Position numbers and translations under genes: made by a program
From: Escherichia phage vB_Eco_mar004NP2
Strand: one strand, 5' to 3'
Sequence record: OR896837.1
DNA length: 64,000 nt
Shown here: piece by piece, positions 31,724-59,454 of the stretch
Position numbering within the stretch: position 1 is the stretch's first letter
How the letters are laid out: every line of letters begins with the position of its first letter
Notes under the pieces: model-generated
Seen by the model: the letters and a program-made list of their open reading frames with translations, nothing else
Told to the model about the DNA's origin: nothing
The model's database searches: none

Positions 31724-32408
31724 TCAATTCGATCATTGAGAATGGGGCATTTTCATATTTCTCATAGACTTCCATAAGGAGTGCTAGACCTGAGTCACCT
31801 TTAATGTCTTTCTGAGCTATATCTCCGCAGATAATTAAACGGCAGTCTTGCCCTACACGAGTTAGGAGACAAATCATTGCCTCAACGGAAATATTCTGAG
31901 CTTCATCGACAATTACATAGGAGTTGTTGAAAGTTCTGCCACGAGCATGTTCGACAGCCAAAAATTTAATTTTCTGACGTTCGACATATCCCTTATAGGC
32001 ATGATCGCCGATGGCCCATTTCATACCATCAGCTATTGGCTCTAACCAAGGCTCTAGCTTTTCCGCCAGATCACCAGGAAGCATACCAAGAGACTTACCT
32101 AGAGGTTCATTAGGACGTACGAGAATCACTTGCTCAATATCTGAGTGAATGTCTACGAGTTCCTGAGCTGCAAGAACGGACGGAATAAAGGTTTTACCAG
32201 TACCTGGCTCACCGATACCCACAGTCACTGTGTTGTTCTTGATCATATTGATATATGATTTTTGCTCGCGGTTTTTACCTACTAGGGATTTAGCAACTGG
32301 GTTAGCGTAATCATTAGAAAAATTAGTCTGAATTACGTTATTCTCATATTTGTTGCCACGCTTTCTTGAACCATTGCGGTTCTCTCTTTTTTGACGTGCT
32401 TTTCCCAT
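31656..32408 (-). CDS. phoH: PhoH-like ATPase
   Basis: Walker A GEPGTGKT and Walker B VIVDEAQN; start set at ATG 32408 after AGGAG RBS. Confidence 0.8.
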   Translation of the reverse strand: MGKARQKRENRNGSRKRGNKYENNVIQTNFSNDYANPVAKSLVGKNREQKSYINMIKNNTVTVGIGEPGTGKTFIPSVLAAQELVDIHSDIEQVILVRPNEPLGKSLGMLPGDLAEKLEPWLEPIADGMKWAIGDHAYKGYVERQKIKFLAVEHARGRTFNNSYVIVDEAQNISVEAMICLLTRVGQDCRLIICGDIAQKDIKGDSGLALLMEVYEKYENAPFSMIELIDNVRSVESKAFYDIFKDMGKV

Positions 32409-32481
32409 AAATAACACTCCTATAGTGTACTTCGCTAACAGAGGATCAACAAAAAGATCTTGTTTATCAACTTACAAATAT

Positions 32482-32510
32482 ATTATACCAATATATACAG
32501 TAAAAAGCAA
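32482..32510 (-). promoter_or_regulatory. sigma70-like promoter reading leftward toward phoH
   Basis: Reverse complement gives TTGCTT, 17-bp spacer, TATAAT. Confidence 0.45.
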
Positions 32511-32622
32511 CTACAATTTTAAATAAGCCTATGATATTGCATTTAAATAAAAAATTTGCTTGCTTTTAACGTGAGATGTGTGATACTAGATAATCATTTT
32601 ATATCGCGTGTACGAGTGCGTG

Positions 32623-32651
32623 ATTATACAATTTTTAATAGAGATTGGCAA
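32623..32651 (-). promoter_or_regulatory. second leftward sigma70-like promoter
   Basis: Reverse complement TTGCCA, 17 bp, TATAAT. Confidence 0.4.
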
Positions 32652-32702
32652 ATAAAATTTTTTGACTCAGATCATGTTACAGAACTTTATAGTAAAATAT
32701 TG

Positions 32703-32731
32703 TTGACATCTGCCCTCGAATGAGTTATAAT
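32703..32731 (+). promoter_or_regulatory. consensus sigma70 promoter for nrdD
   Basis: TTGACA, 17-bp spacer, TATAAT, then GGAGAG RBS and ATG at 32761. Confidence 0.65.
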
Positions 32732-32760
32732 AGTAGTCTTAGTTATAGAAGGAGAGTATA

Positions 32761-35147: not shown

Positions 35148-35337
35148 GGGTTTAAATGCCGCTTTGGAAAACGCATTAATGCAGCATTGGGAAACTGGCT
35201 ATAAGGATGGTGTTGAATCCTGCGCTAATATGCTAGAAGTTATTGCTAATACCTTAATGGAGAAAGGCAATAAAGAATTAGCTGAGCTATTAGACAGTAT
35301 TGGGCAAAACTTCAGAGAACAGGTGGAAAATGCGTAG
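35116..35337 (+). CDS. hypothetical protein (73 aa)
   Basis: ORF. Confidence 0.4.
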   Translation: MAFSKPMLPDKGLNAALENALMQHWETGYKDGVESCANMLEVIANTLMEKGNKELAELLDSIGQNFREQVENA

Positions 35338-36148
35338 ATTAATTATTATTAGCGGTGCGGGTTTGAGTGTTGAAAGTGGTGTACGAGCTTTTCGTACTGA
35401 TACTGCTAGTGGTAAAGCACTGTGGGATGATTATGATCTAGAAGAAGTATGTAATATTCATGCCTTTCGTAGTAATTTTTACCATAAAACCCATATGTTT
35501 TACAACAAACGTCGTGAAGAGCTAAAAACTGTTGAACCCAATCTTGCACATTTGCGTATTGGTGAATGGTATAAACAATATCCAGGTCAGGTAGTAAACT
35601 TGACTACCAACGTTGATGACCTTATTGAGCGTGCTGGCGTTCCACATAGTGACATTCTGCACATTCACGGATATTTAAAAGAGGTTATTGTAGCTGATAG
35701 CTACAATAGTAGCAATAAACGGATTATTGATGTAGGGTACAATTCTATTGATCCAGATGATTATAAATGGGTTAAACCTAATGTAATCTTCTTTGGGGAG
35801 CATGCTCCAGCGTATGCAGAAATGTACAATATTTTTGATGGTATTACCAGTCAAGATATGATCATTGTGGTTGGTTGCTCTAACCAAGTAATTAACTTCT
35901 ACTGGGAATTATTTCCTGTTCTTAATTTGACTGCTGCGAAACTTATGGTTGTTAACTACTATGATAGTGCCCTCGCAGCGGAACCGGGCTATCAAGGTAT
36001 GACTCGTAGTGAGATGTACCAGCTGGAAGAACGTGGTATCCCTTACTGGAGTAAAGGTGCGGTAGATGCTTTCAACGACCCTGATTTTATTGCTCGTGTA
36101 GAAGCCCATTTAGAGGGTAGACCTTATGTGTCGAGAAGCAAGAAATAA
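35330..36148 (+). CDS. Sir2-family (sirtuin-like) NAD-binding protein
   Basis: GAGLSVESGVRAFR, NVDDLIERAG, HIHG, FFGE motifs; no Zn-binding Cys tetrad visible; start set at ATG 35330. Confidence 0.65.
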   Translation: MRRLIIISGAGLSVESGVRAFRTDTASGKALWDDYDLEEVCNIHAFRSNFYHKTHMFYNKRREELKTVEPNLAHLRIGEWYKQYPGQVVNLTTNVDDLIERAGVPHSDILHIHGYLKEVIVADSYNSSNKRIIDVGYNSIDPDDYKWVKPNVIFFGEHAPAYAEMYNIFDGITSQDMIIVVGCSNQVINFYWELFPVLNLTAAKLMVVNYYDSALAAEPGYQGMTRSEMYQLEERGIPYWSKGAVDAFNDPDFIARVEAHLEGRPYVSRSKK

Positions 36149-36240
36149 TGAATGGGATATTTTTATAGCTTAGTCTGGCACTTGGTGTTATATATATGTT
36201 GATACGGTTGAGTATGATACGTTCTTAGAAAGGAACAAAA

Positions 36241-36747
36241 ATGGAAATAAGTAATACTCCAATTATTTTTCTAGACATTGATGGGGTGCTCAATTCGAGC
36301 ATCTCCCATCATCATGCACCTGATAATGAAAAGATTTTCTTTGGAAGTGACTGGGTTTTCAAACCGCTTCTCAAGGCTTTTCAGGATTTTATTCGTCCTT
36401 CTCCGATAATGATTGTTGGAGTATCCTCATGGTTCTCTGTTAGGAATGAGATGGAGAACGTTCAGATTATGACCGGATTAGGTCTTATCGATCGTTTTCT
36501 TGGTACAACTGATTTTACTGGGGGTGGGCTATCTAGAGGTAATTCTGTTCTCCGTTTCGTTGAAAAGCATAAGCTCAAACATTGGTGTGTGCTTGATGAT
36601 GCTGGTGCTACGATGTATCAGTATCCAACGGTTATAGTCAACGGTAGGACTGGGATAAATCTTCAAGATTTAAAAGCTGTTAGCTATATGCTAGAATTTA
36701 GCCCAGATATTGAAATGTGTAAATCCTTACAACAATTTAAGGTGTAA
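36241..36747 (+). CDS. HAD-superfamily phosphatase (nucleotidase-like)
   Basis: N-terminal FLDIDGVLN (DxDG) motif. Confidence 0.55.
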   Translation: MEISNTPIIFLDIDGVLNSSISHHHAPDNEKIFFGSDWVFKPLLKAFQDFIRPSPIMIVGVSSWFSVRNEMENVQIMTGLGLIDRFLGTTDFTGGGLSRGNSVLRFVEKHKLKHWCVLDDAGATMYQYPTVIVNGRTGINLQDLKAVSYMLEFSPDIEMCKSLQQFKV

Positions 36748-36749
36748 AT

Positions 36750-37178
36750 ATGTTCAATAATGTATTCTCTAAAGAAGCTAACCCAATTTTGGTTAACTTT
36801 TGGCGTACTCTCCCAGCTAGCCTGTATAATGAGGCTATTAACTCTTTGAAAATATGGTGTGAGAATAACGAAATCTCCTTTGCTTTTAAGGATGATATTG
36901 ATGAGGCCCCCTGTATTGGTTTAATTGTGCAGGTAGAGGATGGTCTTGAAGAGATTGTGGGCTGGAAAGAGTTAGACGAAATGGGCTTAGTTTTTGCGTT
37001 AAACTATAAGCTGTTTATGCCTGCTAAGCATCGCCTAGTTGTTAACTATAAAACTAGTGAATCTCCTGGTTTTCAGGTTAATGAACGTTATGGTTGGTCT
37101 TACTCACCGGAAGAAGTGAATGAGGGGATTCAGAAACTTCGCCGTTTCGGGTATATGATCCCAGGTTTAACTGCTTAA
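36750..37178 (+). CDS. hypothetical protein, paralog A of tandem pair
   Basis: Shares SF(A/T)F...(D/P)C.G...W.EL..MGL...LN..LF...PGL with the next ORF. Confidence 0.5.
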   Translation: MFNNVFSKEANPILVNFWRTLPASLYNEAINSLKIWCENNEISFAFKDDIDEAPCIGLIVQVEDGLEEIVGWKELDEMGLVFALNYKLFMPAKHRLVVNYKTSESPGFQVNERYGWSYSPEEVNEGIQKLRRFGYMIPGLTA

Positions 37179-37187
37179 GGAGGCAGA

Positions 37188-37580
37188 ATGGAACAAGTAT
37201 ATTGGCGTCAGATTGATCCTAGTTTGGTGAAGCGTGCTGAGAAGCTGCTACAACGTTGGTTGGGGGTAAAGCAAGCCTCCTTCACTTTTCCAGAGCAGCA
37301 AATAGATGATCCCTGCACTGGCGTTTTCCTGTCTGGATATGCCGGGGAATGGGAGATGGACTGGAATGAATTGTCCTCTATGGGTTTAATTGTTTCCCTA
37401 AATTTCTCTTTGTTCCATCCACGTGGTTTTGCCATATGTCGTGTGCCTGATGACGGTTGTTCGCCCCATCTTTTACAGGTGAAAGATGATATTTGGGAGT
37501 ACACTCCAGATATTCTCAAAGAAGCTAAAGAACAATTAAACCGTGTTGGGATTTATGTTCCAGGCCTAAATGATGAATGA
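37188..37580 (+). CDS. hypothetical protein, paralog B of tandem pair
   Basis: Similarity to preceding ORF. Confidence 0.5.
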   Translation: MEQVYWRQIDPSLVKRAEKLLQRWLGVKQASFTFPEQQIDDPCTGVFLSGYAGEWEMDWNELSSMGLIVSLNFSLFHPRGFAICRVPDDGCSPHLLQVKDDIWEYTPDILKEAKEQLNRVGIYVPGLNDE

Positions 37581-37671
37581 TTTTTACTAGCTGAACTCTG
37601 ATTACCGAGTCATTTTGGCTCGGTTTTCTCTGTACTCAAAGACACTGATAGCACCTTTGGGAAAAATTTAC

Positions 37672-37700
37672 TTGCACGGTGCTCAAAATCTTGATATAAT
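37672..37700 (+). promoter_or_regulatory. sigma70-like promoter at start of a 0.6-kb non-coding region
   Basis: TTGCAC, 17 bp, TATAAT. Confidence 0.55.
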
Positions 37701-38199
37701 ATTTATATTGAATTGAGAGACATTAGTAAAAATTGATTTTGCTAATTTTTCTTGTTTACAATCCGCGATACGGAACAGTTAGGCTGCCCCATTAAGGGTT
37801 GTTTTAACTGTTACGTGTTAGTTTTTAAACAAATAGTTAATAGAATACTTAGCGATCTGCGTCCCGTAGGAACCCTGGTAAGGCCTCGAAGCAACCTAGA
37901 TAGAGGTGGTTGTGAAGTGAGACGGGAGGAGTGAAAAACTCCGAGACGTGATTCTGTAAGTTATATTGCATCTAGTATGAGCTAGTATATGAAGCATTAG
38001 GTGAGCAAATCTGGCTTAGCGGCCATCCTCAAGGATTTGTGCGGTATAGCAAAGCAGCAGCGCAGCGTGAAAGTGGAAGTTGCCACCCCACTTCAGTATT
38101 TGCGATTAATTTGTTGAGAAATTGACAGTAACAGTTGTTCTATTCTTTCTGAATAGTCCTAAAGAAAACTTATTTCATTTCCAACACAGGAGTATTGTT

Positions 38200-40989
38200 G
38201 TGTTTTCAATCCTACAAGGTCATGCAGGATTTCATCGCGATTTAGCCACAGGCAATTGGCGAGAAGTTAAAGCAGAAGATTATCTTTTTGCTAAAAGATT
38301 TTCCTCAAAGCATCCTGAAGGTAAACCAGCTTCAATGCCCTTCAAGTTTGATGTAATTGACGAAGTTGATCCTCAAACCCTAGTAGAAATGCTTCCTCTT
38401 ATGAGACGTTTAACGTCTGACCCTCATATCGTTGCGGTACGAGGTCGATGTCTTGCACCTAAAAATAATGTGCGGCGTAAGAATGGCAACTTTAATGTAT
38501 CTAACCCAAGTCATATAATTGCAATGGATGTGGATGGTATTGTAGATACAGGTGGTTGTAACAAGTTTGATCTTGTTGGCATGGCTCGACATATTATTAG
38601 AATGTTAAATAGTATTAGTGAGGATATGTTTCCTCTTGATGCAGGGTTTATCGCTCATGCATCGTCTTCGGCTGGGCTAAAACCAGGTATCCGAATGCAC
38701 TTAATACTAGAATCTAATGTTAAAGTAACTCAGGGTCAAATCAAATTCTTATTTACATCTATCAACGAAAGTAGTAGACAAAAGTATGGCTTTGATATTG
38801 CCGACTTAGCTTATTACTCTTCCGTACAGCTCCATTATTTTGCAGATCCGTTATTTACCGATGGTATAGTAGATCCGTTTAAAGAGGAGGGTGCTTCACG
38901 TCTGGTATTTGTTAAGGGTTCTAAAGTAAATTTACCCAATAATCTGGTTGACTATGAAACAACTAGAGGTGAGTTTAAAGAAGAGTTCTACTCTTTACTA
39001 GACCAAATTAAGGGTAAAAAAGCTGCCTCTGATAAAGTAGAAGAAACCATCAGCGAACTAGAAGAAGCTGAGGATGGAGTGTATCTACGTATTATTCCTA
39101 AACTCTATCACAGGGCTTTAGAGGATGGTGTTGATTTTGCATGGCTAGAAAAAGAAATCCGTCCAGCCTTATCAGAATATATTGCAACTAAAGATAATAG
39201 TCGTAATATTCAAGACTACTTTAATAATGGTCGTAAACAGGCTCTAAAAGCATTTGTTAATAATTCTAAACGTTATATACCGGATGTTTTAAAAGGTATT
39301 CCACTCAAAAAGCTAGAAACTAACTCTTTAGAGACTGATAACTTCTTGAAATTAAATACTGTGCCACCAGAAGGTTATATGACTTTTGTAAAAGCGAGTC
39401 TAGGTACAGGTAAAACTACAGCGGTTGTGCGTTGGTTAGATTCAGGAGTTATTAAAGGTAATTTCTTAGCAATTACCAATACTCGAGCACTGGTATCTTC
39501 CAATGCTAAGAAATTTAGTGCAGGACAATATGATAAGTCTGTAGATATGCTTAATTTTAAGCGTGGTGCTATTGACCGTATGTCCACAACTATTCACTCT
39601 TTGCATAAGTTCAAGAGTTTTATTGGTCAAATTGATGCAATCTTTATCGATGAATGTGATGCAGTAATGAACGACCTATTATTCGCCCCGGTTGTTAAAC
39701 AACGTCGTGAATGTATTCAGGTTCTTCGGGATATTCTTGCAACTGCAAAAATCATTATATTATCAGATGGTGATATTAGTGCAGAAACAATTGAAGCATA
39801 TGGTTCTTTGATCGAGTTTGATAAACCGGTTGCATTTTATAATCATCACCGTAAAATGCTGTCAAAAGCTCATGCTTATGAGTTTCCTGATGAATCCAGT
39901 ATTTGGGTTGCACTTCAGACTTCTCTAGAGATGGGTGAGAAATCTATTCTGGTATCTGATTGTGGCCCTGATGAGCTGAATGAGAAGGGTATGGCATTAC
40001 GTCGTAATACGGGTGCGTTAGTTAAGGAAATCCACTCAAATTCTACGTCTGATGTGGATATTAGACGTATTCTGGATTACACAACTAATGAGCTGATTGA
40101 TCAACAAATTGATTGCTTATTATGTAGTCCATCCGTAACGAGTGGAGTTGACTTCAACTATTTTGATAACGTATTCGTTATTACTAGAACCAGTAACCAA
40201 GCGCCAAACATGCGTTTTCAAGCAATCAGGCGCGACCGTGGTGCTCAGAATATCTATTATTTTATTGATAAATCTACGAGTGGATTCTCTGCAGGTTCTG
40301 AACAATATAATATTGATGAGGGCTGGCTGGAGTTAGCACAGCAATTATATGCACGTCGTAGAGAGCTGGAATCTAGAAATTATACTAGTACTTTACGTTA
40401 TTACTTGCTTGATCAGGGTGCAACTATTGATATTTTCAGCGAAAGCTGGGGAACTATTGAAGGTGCAGGGAAAGAATATATGGAAGAGCGAATCAAAGCT
40501 ATTCTACATTCAACTCCTGATTATTGTGCTCCACGTCATGCGGATGCGTATGAAGCTAAACTACTTCTTGTTCGCTATTATCATCTTGAGTCTATTAAAG
40601 ATGTAACAGTTGAGCATGTTGAACAATATATCAAGGATAAACCTAATGATCGAGCGGCATTCTTCCATAAAATGCACGAGATGTTTTGGGAAGATATTAA
40701 GAAGTGTTCAAACGTCACTATCAAACCATTCATAGAAGCTCTGAAAGGTAAGAAGAAGGACTTCTTCCTTAAAACAGGTCAGAGTGCTAACCCAAAATAT
40801 GCTAGAATGTATCTTGGTATGATGGGTATTGGTAAGGATATGAACACTGAAAATATTGTAGACTGGTACAGAACCTATTGTAAAATCGAGTGTATGCCAA
40901 TTCCTTATAAGTTTATGACTGATGAGGAGAAACATATGCATGATGAAGCAATGGCAGAGCTAGGTGCTAGAAATGACAGTGAAGAATAA
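38200..40989 (+). CDS. replication initiation / origin-binding-type protein with P-loop NTPase domain
   Basis: Walker A SLGTGKTT and Walker B IFIDECD in a 929-aa protein at the head of the replication module; start set at GTG 38200 after ACAGGAG RBS. Confidence 0.5.
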   Translation: MFSILQGHAGFHRDLATGNWREVKAEDYLFAKRFSSKHPEGKPASMPFKFDVIDEVDPQTLVEMLPLMRRLTSDPHIVAVRGRCLAPKNNVRRKNGNFNVSNPSHIIAMDVDGIVDTGGCNKFDLVGMARHIIRMLNSISEDMFPLDAGFIAHASSSAGLKPGIRMHLILESNVKVTQGQIKFLFTSINESSRQKYGFDIADLAYYSSVQLHYFADPLFTDGIVDPFKEEGASRLVFVKGSKVNLPNNLVDYETTRGEFKEEFYSLLDQIKGKKAASDKVEETISELEEAEDGVYLRIIPKLYHRALEDGVDFAWLEKEIRPALSEYIATKDNSRNIQDYFNNGRKQALKAFVNNSKRYIPDVLKGIPLKKLETNSLETDNFLKLNTVPPEGYMTFVKASLGTGKTTAVVRWLDSGVIKGNFLAITNTRALVSSNAKKFSAGQYDKSVDMLNFKRGAIDRMSTTIHSLHKFKSFIGQIDAIFIDECDAVMNDLLFAPVVKQRRECIQVLRDILATAKIIILSDGDISAETIEAYGSLIEFDKPVAFYNHHRKMLSKAHAYEFPDESSIWVALQTSLEMGEKSILVSDCGPDELNEKGMALRRNTGALVKEIHSNSTSDVDIRRILDYTTNELIDQQIDCLLCSPSVTSGVDFNYFDNVFVITRTSNQAPNMRFQAIRRDRGAQNIYYFIDKSTSGFSAGSEQYNIDEGWLELAQQLYARRRELESRNYTSTLRYYLLDQGATIDIFSESWGTIEGAGKEYMEERIKAILHSTPDYCAPRHADAYEAKLLLVRYYHLESIKDVTVEHVEQYIKDKPNDRAAFFHKMHEMFWEDIKKCSNVTIKPFIEALKGKKKDFFLKTGQSANPKYARMYLGMMGIGKDMNTENIVDWYRTYCKIECMPIPYKFMTDEEKHMHDEAMAELGARNDSEE

Positions 40990-58136: not shown

Positions 58137-59011
58137 TGAGTAAATCCTGGGGAAAATTTATTGAAGAAGAGGAAGCTGAAATGGCTTCCCGTCGTAACCT
58201 AATGATTGTTGATGGAACTAACTTAGGCTTCCGCTTCAAACATAACAATAGTAAAAAACCATTTGCCTCAAGTTATGTTTCCACTATTCAGTCTCTAGCA
58301 AAATCTTATTCTGCTAGAACTACAATAGTTTTAGGGGATAAAGGAAAGTCTGCATTCCGCCTAGAGCATCTTCCAGAGTATAAAGGGAATCGAGATGAGA
58401 AATACTCTCAGCGTACGGAAGAGGAAAAAGCGTTAGATGAGCAGTTTTTCGAGTATTTGAAAGATGCTTTCGAACTATGTGAAACTACATTCCCAACCTT
58501 CACTATTCGTGGTGTAGAAGCAGATGATATGGCAGCTTATATTGTTAAGCTGATTGGGCATCTATATGATCATGTTTGGCTAATTTCTACCGATGGTGAC
58601 TGGGATACTTTATTAACTGATAAAGTTTCTCGCTTCTCTTTTACAACACGTCGTGAATATCATCTTCGTGATATGTATGAGCACCATAATGTTGACGATG
58701 TAGAGCAGTTTATCTCTCTGAAAGCAATTATGGGTGATTTAGGGGATAATATCCGTGGTGTTGAAGGTATTGGGGCAAAACGCGGGTATAATATTATTCG
58801 TGAATTTGGTAACGTTCTGGATATTATTGATCAGCTTCCACTACCTGGAAAACAGAAATATATACAGAATTTAAATGCTTCGGAAGAATTGCTTTATCGA
58901 AACCTAATTTTAGTTGATTTACCTACCTACTGTGTGGACGCTATTGCTGCTGTAGGTCAAGATGTATTAGATAAGTTTACAAAAGATATTTTGGAGATTG
59001 CAGAACAATGA
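58136..59011 (+). CDS. 5'-3' exonuclease / flap endonuclease
   Basis: FEN signatures MIVDGTNLGFR, EADD, STDGD, GD.GDN.RGVEGIG. Confidence 0.85.
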   Translation: MSKSWGKFIEEEEAEMASRRNLMIVDGTNLGFRFKHNNSKKPFASSYVSTIQSLAKSYSARTTIVLGDKGKSAFRLEHLPEYKGNRDEKYSQRTEEEKALDEQFFEYLKDAFELCETTFPTFTIRGVEADDMAAYIVKLIGHLYDHVWLISTDGDWDTLLTDKVSRFSFTTRREYHLRDMYEHHNVDDVEQFISLKAIMGDLGDNIRGVEGIGAKRGYNIIREFGNVLDIIDQLPLPGKQKYIQNLNASEELLYRNLILVDLPTYCVDAIAAVGQDVLDKFTKDILEIAEQ

Positions 59012-59454
59012 TTAAAATTAAATTAACTCATCCAGATTGTATGCCTAAGATTGGTTCCGAAGATGCCGCAGGTATGGATCTGCGAGCATTCTTTGGTACA
59101 AACCCTGCTGCAGATTTACGTGCTATTGCGCCAGGCAAATCCCTAATGATTGACACCGGTGTCGCGGTAGAAATTCCGCGAGGTTGGTTCGGTTTGGTGG
59201 TTCCTCGTAGCTCTTTAGGTAAGCGCTATTTGATGATTGCAAACACCGCAGGGGTGATCGACTCAGACTATCGTGGTACTATTAAGATGAACCTCTATAA
59301 TTACGGTTCTGAAATGCAAACTCTGGAGAATTTCGAGAGACTTTGTCAGCTAGTGGTATTGCCACATTACTCAACTCATAATTTTGAAATCGTTGATGAG
59401 TTAGAAGAGACTGTACGTGGAGAAGGAGGATTTGGAAGTTCAGGAAGTAAGTAA
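59008..59454 (+). CDS. dut: dUTPase
   Basis: Motifs AGMDLRA, GVIDSDYRG, GGFGSSG. Confidence 0.9.
   Translation: MIKIKLTHPDCMPKIGSEDAAGMDLRAFFGTNPAADLRAIAPGKSLMIDTGVAVEIPRGWFGLVVPRSSLGKRYLMIANTAGVIDSDYRGTIKMNLYNYGSEMQTLENFERLCQLVVLPHYSTHNFEIVDELEETVRGEGGFGSSGSK

What the first reader, a model, noticed from the sequence alone, without database searches (positions are those of the whole stretch)
37581..38199. 0.6-kb non-coding region with strong promoter and multiple inverted repeats upstream of the replication initiator gene
After the paralog pair there is a sigma70-consensus promoter (37672..37700) and then about 500 nt with no ORF. Inverted repeats include ACAGTTA...TAACTGT (about 37783..37820) and AAGTGG...CCACTT (about 38069..38091), ending at the origin-binding-type gene. 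Candidates are a long structured 5' leader, an sRNA, or a replication origin with initiator binding sites.
Basis: partly seen in the sequence, partly recalled or inferred. Interest (0 to 1): 0.5.

Follow-up and report, generated by a model that had tools for sequence, protein, structure and literature searches.

The report
Large structured RNA before T5 helicase gene
The "empty" 0.6 kb in front of the replication-initiator helicase gene of this T5-like phage encodes a large, intricately folded RNA made from a strong early promoter; it is conserved in shape across T5 relatives, matches no described RNA family, and its function is unknown.

Summary
The window is a T5-like Salmonella phage. The gap 37581-38199 holds a terminator, a T5-type early promoter (-35 37672-77, TGnTATAAT to 37700) and a ~493-nt untranslated stretch before the GTG of the D2/"origin-binding" helicase gene.

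It is neither a small ORF nor an iteron origin. It is a large structured RNA:
- a 5' hairpin;
- an invariant 25-nt motif;
- a ~335-nt domain closed by a ~40-bp helix (P1). Inside are a multi-helix domain carrying the invariant hairpin CU[UAGC]GG, and a terminal hairpin.

Two lineages share 84-97% identity in the flanks but only 43-51% in the core, yet fold alike. A covariance model built from T5-type sequences alone finds the window's copy (E 1e-5). On the cross-lineage alignment 93% of cells pair, and 50 of 63 pairs changed on both sides (13-22 in slid controls).

Rfam has no match. True copies occur only in T5-like phages. Aeromonas relatives carry a ~770-nt structured RNA at the same locus.

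Function is inferred, not shown: most likely an RNA module acting with or for the adjacent initiator (expression control or initiator recruitment). An RNA-primed origin and an unrelated trans-acting RNA remain open.

The parts
37604..37632 (+). Intrinsic terminator of the upstream operon: hairpin 37604-37624, then a T-run.
   Evidence: Terminator scan. T5 annotates a terminator at the homologous site. The stem is conserved or compensated in relatives.
37661..37700 (+). T5-type early promoter: A-tract 37661-69, -35 TTGCAC 37672-77, 17-nt spacer, TG 37692-93, -10 TATAAT 37695-37700.
   Evidence: Sequence. T5 annotates a promoter at the homologous place. The -10, TTGCA and the downstream GAGAGA box are invariant in 9 lineages. 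Resemblance to published T5 promoters such as PN25 is from memory.
37707..38199 (+). Untranslated transcript, about 493 nt. The start at A37707 is inferred from promoter geometry, not measured.
   Evidence: No conserved ORF. No promoter-like or terminator-like site between 38072 and 38199.
37715..37753 (+). 5' hairpin HP1: inner stem 37722-31 with 37737-46, outer stem 37715-20 with 37748-53.
   Evidence: MFE folds of all lineages. Hand comparison on the sequences shows covariation: window TAGTAAAA/TTTTGCTA, L025 TTAGACAA/TTGTCTAA, PR1 TTAGGCG/CGCCTAA.
37768..37792 (+). Invariant motif ATACGGAACAGTTAGGCTGCCCCAT, probably a small hairpin GG-AA-CAGU[UAG]GCUG-CC.
   Evidence: Near-invariant across lineages down to 67-78% helicase identity. 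A related motif, ACGGAAC..TTAGGCTCCACCC, occurs in Aeromonas phages.
37805..37849 (+). Helix P1, 5' strand. It pairs with 38095-38137 and closes the core domain.
   Evidence: Consensus fold of the window's own type and of the T5 type. Duplex energy test: z -5.5, 0 of 300 shuffles. The sequences differ between types but the pairing is the same.
37849..38071 (+). Inner multi-helix domain, the 'Pa domain'. Pa is CTGCG 37857-61 with CGCAG 38061-65. Pb is 37863-67 with 37922-26. Pc is GGAGU[GAAAA]ACUCC 37928-42. Pk is 38005-11 with 38034-40.
   Evidence: Full-length hit of covariance model R1, which was built only from T5-type sequences: 23.7 bits, E 1.1e-5. Cross-lineage pair counts. Within-type compensations in Pa, Pb and Pc.
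38013..38024 (+). Hairpin Pg, GGCU[UAGC]GGCC. Its core CUUAGCGG is invariant.
   Evidence: GCTTAGCGGC is present once, on the + strand, in all 35 loci fetched at that point. CTTAGCGG is invariant in 9 lineages. The flanking stem pairs covary (GC, AU, UG).
38071..38093 (+). Hairpin Pz, AAGUGG[AAGUUGCCACC]CCACUU.
   Evidence: UA to GC within type; the T5 type has GAUAUGA/UCAUAUU. My1 has TAAGGGG[GTTGCCA]TCCCTTA.
38095..38137 (+). Helix P1, 3' strand.
38140..38156 (+). Small hairpin CUAUUC[UUUCU]GAAUAG. No U-run follows, so it is not a terminator.
   Evidence: MFE folds. Conserved in close relatives. Terminator scans negative.
38183..38204 (+). Translation-initiation hairpin AACACA[GGAGUAUUGU]UGUGUU. 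The Shine-Dalgarno AGGAG 38188-92 is in the loop; the GTG start at 38200 is in the stem.
   Evidence: Sequence and MFE fold. L024 has AACAT...ATGTT, with an ATG start.
38200..40989 (+). Gene for the 929-aa D2 / 'replication origin binding' SF2 helicase (T5.108 homologue).
   Evidence: ORF. Pfam Herpes_ori_bp at aa 394-533. PHROG 3712. T5 annotation. Biochemistry of the T5 protein in PMC3632103.

Best explanation
The 0.6-kb gap is the gene for a large structured RNA.

**Anatomy.** E. coli-type RNA polymerase starts at an extended -10 early promoter (start about 37707, inferred) and transcribes rightwards. The RNA has three parts:
- a 5' hairpin (37715-53);
- an invariant 25-nt motif (37768-92);
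- a self-contained domain of about 335 nt.

In that domain a helix of about 40 bp (P1, 37805-49 with 38095-137) closes a junction that carries two things:
- a multi-helix domain (37849-38071) with the invariant hairpin CU[UAGC]GG;
- a terminal hairpin (38071-93).

In this phage the same transcript continues, with no promoter or terminator in between, into the GTG-initiated gene of the D2 / origin-binding helicase.

**Shown:**
- the fold is under selection on the + strand;
- it is conserved across T5-like phages although the primary sequence is nearly randomised between lineages;
- it is not coding and matches no described RNA family.

**Inferred (my preferred mechanism).** The folded domain is a functional RNA module that works with or for the neighbouring initiator. 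The long P1 duplex is the kind of substrate RNase III cuts. Cutting there would release a stable core RNA and a processed helicase mRNA. The core, or the invariant motifs, would be bound by the N-terminal half of D2, with which each RNA type is co-inherited. That binding would either set D2 synthesis or bring D2 to this locus.

**Confidence.** The figure of 0.55 is for the statement as a whole. That a selected, structured, non-coding RNA exists here I put at about 0.95. The proposed mode of action I put at about 0.3-0.35.
For: **Identity of the locus.**
- The window is 100% identical to Salmonella phage SIA3lw, and 529 phage records match.
- T5 annotates a terminator and a promoter at the homologous sites, 470 nt before T5.108.

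**Length and motifs conserved while the sequence is not.**
- The gap is about 620-650 nt in lineages whose helicase is 99% down to 74% identical.
- GCTTAGCGGC is present in 35 of 35 loci.
- Window against T5: 84-97% identity in the flanks, 43-51% at 37841-38140.

**Covariation within a lineage.**
- T5 type: 109 pairs, 99.7% of cells paired, 7 pairs changed on both sides against 0-1 in slid controls, and only three isolated single-sequence mismatches.
- Window type: 103 pairs, 5 compensated (in Pa, Pb, Pc and Pz), 2 single broken cells.

**Covariation across lineages.** A model built from T5-type sequences only gives the best hit in each relative's locus, at the expected place and full length:
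- window, 23.7 bits, E 1e-5;
- L024, 25.4 bits;
- L011, 14.8; My1, 14.4; PSTCR5, 12.3; L025, 10.7; PR1, 8.9.

On that alignment:
- 93.1% of cells pair, against 64% when shuffled and 35-44% when slid;
- 50 of 63 pairs changed on both sides, against 13-22 when slid;
- the covariation score is 0.575, against 0.168 shuffled and at most 0.117 slid.

**Helix P1.** Duplex energy is -33 to -41.5 kcal/mol in 7 of 8 lineages, with z from -2.4 to -6.6.

**Strand.**
- The MFE is -101 kcal/mol on the + strand and -77 on the reverse complement.
- Polymorphic single-sided changes are G.U-type about 10 times and A.C-type twice.

**Not coding:**

**Insertions avoid the core.** Relatives carry a homing-endonuclease gene, a 97-nt insert or a 65-aa ORF, all upstream of the invariant motif and never in the core.

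**Link to D2.**
- RNA type A or B co-segregates with nt 0-1240 of D2 in all 28 genomes. It does not co-segregate with the upstream leader or with the D2 C-terminal part.
- A long gene-free stretch precedes the D2 homologue even in Proteus, Vibrio and Aeromonas phages.
- The Aeromonas stretch is itself a structured RNA of about 770 nt: 47 compensated pairs against 3-6 in slid controls, on an ordinary MAFFT alignment.
Against: **No expression data.** The start site, the RNA's stability, RNase III cleavage and any D2 binding are all inferred.

**Limits of the covariation evidence.**
- The cross-lineage alignment was fitted to the structure by Infernal, which inflates the pairing percentages.
- The model's E-values are rough.
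- Most within-lineage compensations lie on one or two tree branches.

**The co-inheritance may be plain linkage.** The RNA core is too diverged to recombine. One genome (L029) does show an exchange near the start codon.

**Adjacency may be independence.**
- Proteus RP7 has a consensus promoter between the RNA region and D2.
- Aeromonas phages have a strong terminator there.
- L025 and My1 have a 10/12 promoter-like site inside P1.
Together these suggest the RNA may act independently of the D2 message.

**Homology of the distant RNAs is weak.** For the Aeromonas, Vibrio and Proteus RNAs it rests only on short shared motifs; the model did not detect them.

**Weaker spots.**
- In L024, P1 is no better than shuffles.
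- Thermodynamic z-scores are modest (-2 to -4), and absent for L024 and the Vibrio phages.
Confidence: 0.55

Rival explanations
1. RNA-dependent replication origin. Transcription from the strong promoter through this region activates or primes replication next to the initiator gene, as with ColE1 RNA II, T4 ori(uvsY)/ori(34) R-loops or the T7 primary origin. The folded RNA would control hybrid formation or load the D2 helicase.
For: - It lies immediately upstream of the helicase thought to initiate T5 replication (PMC3632103).
- It has a strong early promoter.
- The RNA-like strand is G-rich, with GC skew +0.26 to +0.50 at 37850-38000.
- Each RNA type is co-inherited with the N-terminal half of D2.
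- In T5 the locus lies at 48.4-48.9% of the genome. From memory, not verified here, electron microscopy (Bourguignon et al. 1976) placed a first-round origin near the centre.
Against: - No origin has been mapped here.
- The cumulative GC-skew minimum of the window is at about 32 kb, at the switch of transcription direction, not here.
- No antisense promoter-like site lies in the leader.
- Known R-loop origins do not need a 12-helix fold.
Confidence: 0.2
2. Purely cis-regulatory leader. The fold senses a ligand or protein (riboswitch-like, or autoregulation by D2) and only tunes translation or stability of the D2 message.
For: - It is in the 5' untranslated region on the same strand, and in this phage it is the only route to D2 expression.
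- A weak GTG start sits inside a small hairpin, with the Shine-Dalgarno sequence in its loop. The hairpin is kept with a compensatory change where the start is ATG.
- Replication proteins of other phages autoregulate through leader RNA structures, for example T4 gp32 and gp43 (established knowledge).
Against: - No expression platform was found: there is no terminator, and no alternative pairing between the core and the ribosome-binding site.
- The core closes on itself through P1.
- Its size and complexity far exceed known operators.
- In RP7 and the Aeromonas phages, and perhaps L025 and My1, the RNA region is separated from D2 by a promoter or a terminator.
Confidence: 0.25
3. Trans-acting stable RNA unrelated to D2, for example host takeover, sequestration of a host protein, or counter-defence. 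It would merely be parked upstream of D2.
For: - A very strong early promoter.
- A self-closed ornate fold with a long terminal duplex, as in excised stable RNAs.
- Separate transcription signals in some relatives.
- Two deeply diverged alleles exchanged as a cassette, with a similar mosaic in Vibrio phages.
- Other large phage RNAs of unknown function exist, such as GOLLD and ROOL (bioRxiv 10.1101/2024.12.08.627333, seen).
Against: - The position directly upstream of D2 is kept across very deep divergence (helicase 25-33% identical) while the left-hand neighbour changes.
- There is no similarity to any E. coli genome sequence that would suggest mimicry of a host RNA.
Confidence: 0.2
4. Classical DNA origin: initiator-binding repeats plus an AT-rich unwinding element, recognised as double-stranded DNA.
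For: - It is adjacent to an 'origin-binding protein' gene.
- An AT-rich stretch lies at 37650-37850, GC 0.27-0.35.
Against: - No direct-repeat family has more than two copies, and those found are short and imperfect.
- The conserved signal is base pairing over distances up to 330 nt with compensatory changes. Double-stranded DNA recognition does not select for that.
- G.U-type changes exceed A.C-type changes.
Confidence: 0.05
5. One or more small protein-coding genes hidden in the gap.
For: - ORFs of 60 aa (37752-37934, TTG start) and 38 aa (38001-38117) exist.
- Some database records annotate tiny ORFs in the equivalent gaps.
Against: - The longest ORF differs in frame, strand and length in every lineage.
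- Between types the sequence is about 45-50% identical with preserved pairing, not preserved reading frame.
Confidence: 0.02

Closest known systems
Large 'ornate' phage-associated RNAs of unknown function (GOLLD, ROOL)
   Same: It is hundreds of nucleotides long with many covarying helices. It is encoded by phages and has no coding capacity. Its function is unknown.
   Different: There is no sequence or structure match to the Rfam models. It is smaller, with a core of about 335 nt. It is restricted to T5-like phages. It sits at a fixed position in front of one gene and, in this phage, is part of that gene's transcript.
ColE1 RNA II, T4 ori(uvsY)/ori(34) and the T7 primary origin (transcripts that prime or activate an origin)
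   Same: A strong promoter gives a several-hundred-nucleotide untranslated transcript next to replication functions. In ColE1 the fold of the RNA matters.
   Different: No origin, R-loop, RNase H site or antisense regulator has been shown or predicted here. The architecture is unrelated. This resemblance is a lead only.
Autoregulated leaders of phage replication genes (T4 gene 32 pseudoknot, gene 43 operator) and long structured bacterial leaders
   Same: It is a structured 5' untranslated region of a replication gene, and the start codon region is itself in a hairpin.
   Different: Those operators are tens of nucleotides long. Here at least 12 helices form a self-closed domain with no visible coupling to the ribosome-binding site.
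RNase III processing stalks that flank stable RNAs (rRNA precursors, T7 early mRNAs)
   Same: A long duplex (about 40 bp, few mismatches) formed by sequences flanking a compact structured RNA inside a longer transcript.
   Different: Cleavage has not been tested, and no RNase III site can be predicted reliably from sequence.

Membership tests
Any Rfam 15 family (including GOLLD, ROOL, RNase P, tmRNA, 6S, group I/II introns, riboswitches) | Covariance-model score at or near the family's gathering threshold. | tested here: not met
   The E-value scan of 36500-39000 gave only four chance-level hits (E 4-9), none a credible match to the element. The same scan of six relatives' loci gave nothing relevant. 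ARAGORN found no tRNA or tmRNA here.
Structured non-coding RNA (general kind) | Base pairs maintained by compensatory substitutions beyond the controls. | tested here: met
   7 compensated pairs against 0-1; 5 compensated pairs; 50 of 63 pairs against 13-22, 93% paired against 35-64%., Aeromonas relatives: 47 against 3-6.
Structured non-coding RNA (general kind) | Transcribed on the strand that carries the structure. | not testable with these tools
   A promoter and its orientation are present, and the G.U excess favours the + strand. No expression data were available.
Iteron-type replication origin | Three or more direct repeats of an initiator-binding site beside an AT-rich unwinding element. 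| tested here: not met
   Only two-copy families of 8-17 nt at 75-100% identity were found. An AT-rich stretch exists, but it is one strand of helix P1.
ColE1-type primer RNA origin | An antisense regulatory RNA promoter within the 5' part of the primer transcript. | tested here: not met
   No minus-strand promoter-like site lies inside 37707-38199. The nearest are inside the helicase gene. This is a consensus scan only, so the test is weak.
ColE1-type primer RNA origin | A persistent RNA-DNA hybrid and processing to a primer at a mapped origin. | not testable with these tools
   Needs DRIP, origin mapping or primer mapping.
Riboswitch or attenuator leader | An expression platform: a terminator, or a helix that sequesters the ribosome-binding site and alternates with the sensor fold. 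| tested here: not met
   No terminator-like site lies between the core and the start codon. The ribosome-binding site lies in a small local hairpin, and the core is closed by P1.
Lambda-type nut/boxB antitermination site | A conserved boxB hairpin (5-bp stem, GNRA-like pentaloop) with boxA and a cognate N protein. | tested here: not met
   Pc, GGAGU[GAAAA]ACUCC (37928-42), resembles boxB by eye. It is absent from the T5 type and altered in L025. boxA and N were not searched for.
Small protein-coding gene | An ORF conserved in frame and extent among relatives. | tested here: not met
RNase III-excised stable RNA | A flanking duplex of at least about 20 bp that closes the mature RNA. | tested here: met
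   P1, about 40 bp, is significant against shuffles in 7 of 8 lineages.
RNase III-excised stable RNA | Cleavage in the duplex, giving a discrete stable product. | not testable with these tools
   Needs Northern blots or end mapping in wild-type and rnc hosts.

The most novel reading that the evidence does not exclude
The RNA is the cis-acting partner of the D2 initiator. On this reading the abundant early transcript folds next to its own template, is recognised by the type-specific N-terminal domain of D2 (which carries primase-like DxD and SxGxGxH motifs by eye), and thereby defines or primes the phage's replication origin. That would be an RNA-specified origin in a classical double-stranded DNA phage, with matched RNA-initiator 'types' A and B.
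Probability: 0.2. Interest if true: 0.85.

Novelty: new variant of a known kind. Interest (0 to 1): 0.68.

Why it matters
T5 is one of the seven classical T phages, and its relatives are among the most commonly isolated Salmonella, E. coli and Klebsiella phages; 529 database records carry this region.

- **A blind spot in annotation.** A conserved, promoter-driven structured RNA of 335-490 nt in front of the presumed replication initiator has gone unannotated. Databases leave the stretch blank or fill it with spurious tiny ORFs.
- **A handle on T5 replication.** How and where T5 replication starts is still unsettled. If the RNA acts with the D2 helicase, it gives a direct way to test that.
- **A tractable large phage RNA.** If it acts in trans, it adds a genetically tractable member to the small set of large phage RNAs whose functions are unknown.
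- **A natural experiment.** The two exchangeable core types with the same fold allow specificity to be tested by swapping them.

Tried and rejected
**Known RNA families.** Rfam scans of the window region and of relatives found nothing. There are no tRNA or tmRNA genes here.

**Small ORFs.** Rejected.

**Iterons or direct repeats.** Rejected.

**Host mimicry or prophage copies.** No match in 5,426 E. coli genomes.

**Wider distribution.** A 20-21-base two-motif pattern was scanned in IMG/VR, in metagenomes and in one genome per species.
- All true hits were T5-like phage contigs.
- The 15 hits in bacterial genomes, and most metagenome hits, had neither a helicase homologue nor leader similarity. 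I treat them as chance.

**Structure-aware alignment.**
- mafft-qinsi was unavailable.
- A mini-model of the Pk/Pg hairpin was dropped because MAFFT put the 3' strands in different registers.

As a result, homology of the Proteus, Vibrio and Aeromonas RNAs to the T5 RNA could not be tested by a model. The T5-only model did not detect them.

**Thermodynamic z-scores.** These gave only modest support and are not used as main evidence.

**Nature of the D2 N-terminal domain.**
- Pfam, PHROGs and PDB sequence and profile searches were uninformative.
- The single-sequence AlphaFold model was unusable, pLDDT 33.
- The homologue search returned only 2 fragments.

**GC skew as an origin indicator.** The minimum lies at about 32 kb, at the switch of transcription direction, so it is uninformative (compare PMC5519627).

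**Literature.**
- No description of this RNA was found.
- The 1976 origin-mapping paper is not held.
- The 2023 catalogue of more than 10,000 viral structured-RNA candidates does not mention T5-like phages in its text, and its tables are not held. An unnamed entry there cannot be excluded.
- The Bas33 RNA-seq paper reports gene-level values only.
Full report
**1. What the window is**

The region 37500-38300 is 100% identical to Salmonella phage vB_SalS-SIA3lw. It matches 529 phage records, almost all T5-like phages of Salmonella, Escherichia and Klebsiella.

In phage T5 itself the homologous stretch is annotated only as:
- a terminator (58952-58976);
- a promoter (58999-59073);
- 470 nt later, gene T5.108, "replication origin binding".

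The 929-aa product in the window (38200-40989) has the Pfam Herpes_ori_bp helicase core at aa 394-533. That fits the protein characterised biochemically as the bipolar "D2" helicase of T5: Walker A at aa 399-406 and PF02399 at aa 392-532 (PMC3632103).

**2. The observation**

- **Upstream genes.** The pair 36750-37178 and 37188-37580 are DUF7415 paralogs.
- **Terminator.** A hairpin with a T-run at 37604-37632 ends their operon.
- **Promoter.** TTGCAC (37672-77), 17 nt, then TG-n-TATAAT (37692-37700), with an upstream A-tract and a downstream ATTGAGAGA box.
  - The -10 is perfect and extended.
  - The -35 matches the consensus at only 3 of 6 positions, which is why the simple scan missed it.
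  - The hexamers and the GAGAGA box are invariant in nine diverged relatives.
- **Start site.** I infer a start near A37707 from the geometry. This was not measured.
- **Downstream.** From there to the GTG at 38200 there is no promoter-like or terminator-like site.
- **ORFs.** No ORF is kept in other lineages.

**3. Conservation pattern**

The gap between the upstream gene and the helicase gene stays at about 620-650 nt in lineages whose helicase is 99% down to 74% identical. It is longer only where something has been inserted near its left end.

Two sequence islands are essentially invariant:
- ATACGGAACAGTTAGGCTGCCCCAT (37768-92);
- GCTTAGCGGC (38014-23), present once, on the + strand, in all 35 loci fetched at that stage, including Providencia phages.

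Between these islands the sequence is almost randomised between two "types". Window against T5 is 84-97% identical in the flanking genes and in the first 110 nt of the transcript, but only 43-51% identical at 37841-38140. The length is identical.

Conversely, phage L011 has a core 96-100% identical to the window's while its flanking genes are only 56-95% identical. The core therefore behaves as an exchangeable cassette. It is strongly conserved within a type and saturated between types.

**4. It is a structured RNA**

*(a) Within the T5 type (16 sequences).*
- RNAalifold gives 109 pairs in 15 helices.
- 99.7% of cells pair.
- Seven pairs changed on both sides; sliding the partners by 1-3 columns gives 0-1.
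- Only three single-sequence mismatches occur.

*(b) Within the window's own type (12 sequences).*
- There are 103 pairs.
- Compensated changes occur in Pa (two), Pb, Pc and Pz.
- Only two single broken cells occur.

*(c) Across types.* I built a covariance model from T5-type sequences only (224 positions, 63 pairs). It found the window's copy at 37849-38071, full length (23.7 bits, E about 1e-5), and the Sugarland-like phages (25 bits). With filters off, the top hit in each of L011, My1, PSTCR5, L025 and PR1 fell at the expected place (8.9-14.8 bits).

On the resulting ten-sequence alignment:

| Measure | Observed | Shuffled | Slid |
|---|---|---|---|
| Cells paired | 93.1% | 64% | 35-44% |
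| Pairs changed on both sides (of 63) | 50 | about 29 | 13-22 |
| Covariation score | 0.575 | 0.168 | at most 0.117 |

Caveat: this alignment was fitted to the structure, which favours pairing. Even so, the model had never seen the other lineages.

*(d) The outer helix P1.* I tested it separately. In each lineage the 62 nt before the inner domain were duplexed with the 80 nt after it:
- window, -35.7 kcal/mol against -17.5 +/- 3.3 for shuffles (0 of 300 reach it);
- T5, -36.0;
- L034, -41.5;
- L025, -41.1;
- My1, -32.9;
- the Providencia phages, about -34 (4-5 of 300);
- only the Sugarland type is not significant.

*(e) Strand.*
- The + strand folds to -101 kcal/mol and its complement to -77.
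- Single-sided polymorphisms at paired positions are G.U-compatible about ten times and A.C-type twice.
- So the selected strand is the one made by the promoter.

**5. Anatomy in window coordinates**

| Element | Coordinates | Note |
|---|---|---|
| HP1 | 37715-53 | 5' hairpin |
| Invariant motif | 37768-92 | probably a short hairpin |
| P1 | 37805-49 with 38095-137 | closes the core |
| Pa | 37857-61 with 38061-65 | inside P1 |
| Pb | 37863-67 with 37922-26 | encloses two hairpins |
| Pc | 37928-42 | GGAGU[GAAAA]ACUCC |
| Purine-rich joiner | after Pc | GAGACGUG |
| Three-way sub-domain | ending in Pk | |
| Pk | 38005-11 with 38034-40 | |
| Pg | 38013-24 | invariant GGCU[UAGC]GGCC plus a 9-nt 3' tail |
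| Pz | 38071-93 | also inside P1 |
| Small hairpin | 38140-56 | after P1 |
| Initiation hairpin | 38183-204 | Shine-Dalgarno in the loop, GTG in the stem |

- Its second repeat is Pz.
- Its first repeat is not the conserved pairing. TAACTGTTAC pairs with the distal GTAACAGTT as the base of P1. Where relatives have AACTATTAC they also have GTAATAGTT, while the proximal AACAGTTA stays unchanged.

**6. Distribution**

- No Rfam family matches, in the window or in relatives.
- A two-motif pattern scan of IMG/VR, JGI metagenomes and one genome per bacterial species returned true copies only on T5-like phage contigs. The hits in bacterial genomes lacked any helicase or leader similarity and fit the chance expectation.
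- Nothing similar exists in complete E. coli genomes.
- I found no paper describing the element. An unnamed entry in a large catalogue of viral RNA candidates cannot be excluded.

**7. Deeper relatives**

A long gene-free stretch, often filled with implausible tiny ORFs in the records, precedes the D2 homologue in each of these phages:

| Phage | Gene-free stretch |
|---|---|
| Pectobacterium My1 | 590 nt |
| Providencia PR1 | about 610-nt leader |
| Proteus RP7 | about 800 nt |
| Vibrio phages | about 700 nt |
| Aeromonas phages | 1.5-1.75 kb |

- **Aeromonas.** An ordinary MAFFT alignment of three phages (73% identical) gives 244 predicted pairs, 47 of them compensated against 3-6 in slid controls. 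This is an independent, larger structured RNA of about 770 nt. It contains two CU[UAGC]GG hairpins and the motif ACGGAAC..TTAGGCTCCACCC, which resembles the T5 motif. Homology is therefore plausible but not shown.
- **Vibrio.** The evidence is only suggestive: 5 compensated and 5 disrupted pairs. Some Vibrio phages share just the first 164 nt and then diverge, the same mosaic as in T5.

**8. What it does: shown versus inferred**

*Shown:* an RNA-level fold is under purifying selection, is driven by a conserved strong promoter, and always lies next to D2.

*Bearing on mechanism:*
- (i) In this phage D2 can only be expressed from this transcript.
- (ii) RNA type A or B co-segregates perfectly with nt 0-1240 of D2 (the N-terminal ~410 aa) in 28 genomes. 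It does not co-segregate with the upstream leader or the D2 C-terminal part.
- (iii) The left neighbour changes between genera while D2 stays.
- (iv) Insertions in relatives all lie upstream of the invariant motif.
- (v) RP7 has a consensus promoter, and the Aeromonas phages a strong terminator, between the RNA and D2. L025 and My1 have a promoter-like site in P1. So the RNA need not be part of the D2 message.
- (vi) The core closes on itself through a ~40-bp duplex. That is the architecture of RNAs excised by RNase III (an inference from established knowledge of rRNA and T7 mRNA processing).

*My preferred reading (about 0.3-0.35 for the functional part).* The RNA is a folded module that acts with or for the initiator, either setting its synthesis or recruiting it.

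*Rivals:*
- an RNA-dependent origin (about 0.2);
- a purely cis regulatory leader (about 0.25);
- an unrelated trans-acting RNA (about 0.2);
- a DNA iteron origin or hidden ORFs (about 0.05 or less).

*Evidence for and against an origin here:*
- In T5 the locus sits at 48.4-48.9% of the genome. From memory, the 1976 electron-microscopy study placed a first-round origin near the centre. I could not read that paper.
- A recent study infers mostly unidirectional replication from one end (PMC10055335).
- GC skew turns at about 32 kb, where transcription direction switches, not here.

**9. The D2 N-terminal domain**

It has no Pfam or PDB match. Ten homologues 25-88% identical to the window protein keep these residues invariant:
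- a DxD motif (D110, D112);
- ASSSAGxKxGIRxH;
- D202.

By eye these resemble the catalytic motifs of archaeo-eukaryotic primase-polymerases. This is my reading only.

**10. Verdict**

The finding is real and more interesting than "a leader with some inverted repeats". It is a previously unannotated, family-specific, large structured RNA of a classical model phage.

- It is not a member of any described family, so I class it as a new variant within the known kind "large structured phage RNAs / structured leaders".
- That the structured RNA exists: about 0.95.
- The proposed mode of action: low to moderate confidence, and directly testable.

Noticed in passing
L007:1860-2560 (also L012, L031; Escherichia phage SP15, hit H12): A free-standing HNH homing-endonuclease ORF (about 137 aa, with its own promoter) is inserted between the upstream DUF7415 gene and the RNA. 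The RNA's promoter is replaced by a different TTTGCA-17-TATAAT promoter, while the 5' hairpin and everything downstream are kept.
   Followed up: partly
L006:2455-2551 (also L023, L030): A 97-nt insertion flanked by an 8-nt direct repeat (TTTTTCTT) sits between the 5' hairpin and the invariant motif. It may be a miniature mobile element. It shows this position tolerates insertions whereas the core does not.
   Followed up: no
Escherichia phage SUT_E420 OQ990039.1 59046-60422 (hit H105): The helicase N-terminal match is split into two pieces spanning 1377 nt for 1200 nt of query. That suggests an insertion of about 177 nt inside the gene (intein, intron or indel).
   Followed up: no
window 38200-39369: The N-terminal ~390 aa of the D2 helicase match no Pfam or PDB entry. 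Homologues 25-88% identical to the window protein still keep invariant DxD (D110, D112), ASSSAGxKxGIRxH and D202. By eye this is primase-polymerase-like. The large protein database returned only two partial homologues.
   Followed up: partly
window 35300-37580: The upstream genes are: a Sir2-like protein (35300-36148); a protein with the HAD domain of 'Swiss Army Knife' RNA-repair proteins (36241-36747, Pfam HAD_SAK_2); and two DUF7415 paralogs.
   Followed up: no
window 37928-37942: The hairpin GGAGU[GAAAA]ACUCC has the same stem length, closing pair and loop as lambda nutR boxB (from memory). It is kept, with a compensatory change, within the window's type, but is absent from the T5 type.
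   Followed up: partly
window ~32400-32760: The cumulative GC-skew minimum of the window coincides with the switch from minus-strand genes (up to 32417) to plus-strand genes (from 32761). This is 5.5 kb left of the RNA, and is the kind of point another paper called the 'origin' in phage phiLLS.
   Followed up: partly
L118:860-1700, L116:850-1690, L117:850-1720 (Aeromonas Shenzhenvirus phages): A gene-free gap of 1.5-1.75 kb lies between nrdD and the helicase gene. It encodes a ~770-nt RNA with 47 compensated base pairs and two CU[UAGC]GG hairpins. A strong terminator follows, 85 nt before the helicase start.
   Followed up: yes
L037:661-1371 and hits H164, H165 (Vibrio Thalassavirus phages): A ~700-nt gene-free stretch lies upstream of the helicase gene, with suggestive structure (5 compensated and 5 disrupted pairs). 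Phages Wyman and Pylo share only its first 164 nt, at 98%, and then diverge. This is the same 'conserved 5' part, swapped core' mosaic as in T5.
   Followed up: partly
L001 (NC_005859) features T5.108 and T5.111: There is a name clash. The T5 record labels the 234-aa T5.111 as 'D2 helicase'. The published 'D2' helicase (Walker A at aa 399-406) can only be the 928-aa T5.108, the homologue of the gene downstream of this RNA.
   Followed up: partly
L115:1135-1164 (Proteus phage RP7); L025:2905-2933; L036:1412-1440: RP7 has a 12/12 consensus promoter between its long non-coding region and the helicase gene. L025 and My1 have a 10/12 promoter-like site inside the 3' strand of helix P1.
   Followed up: no
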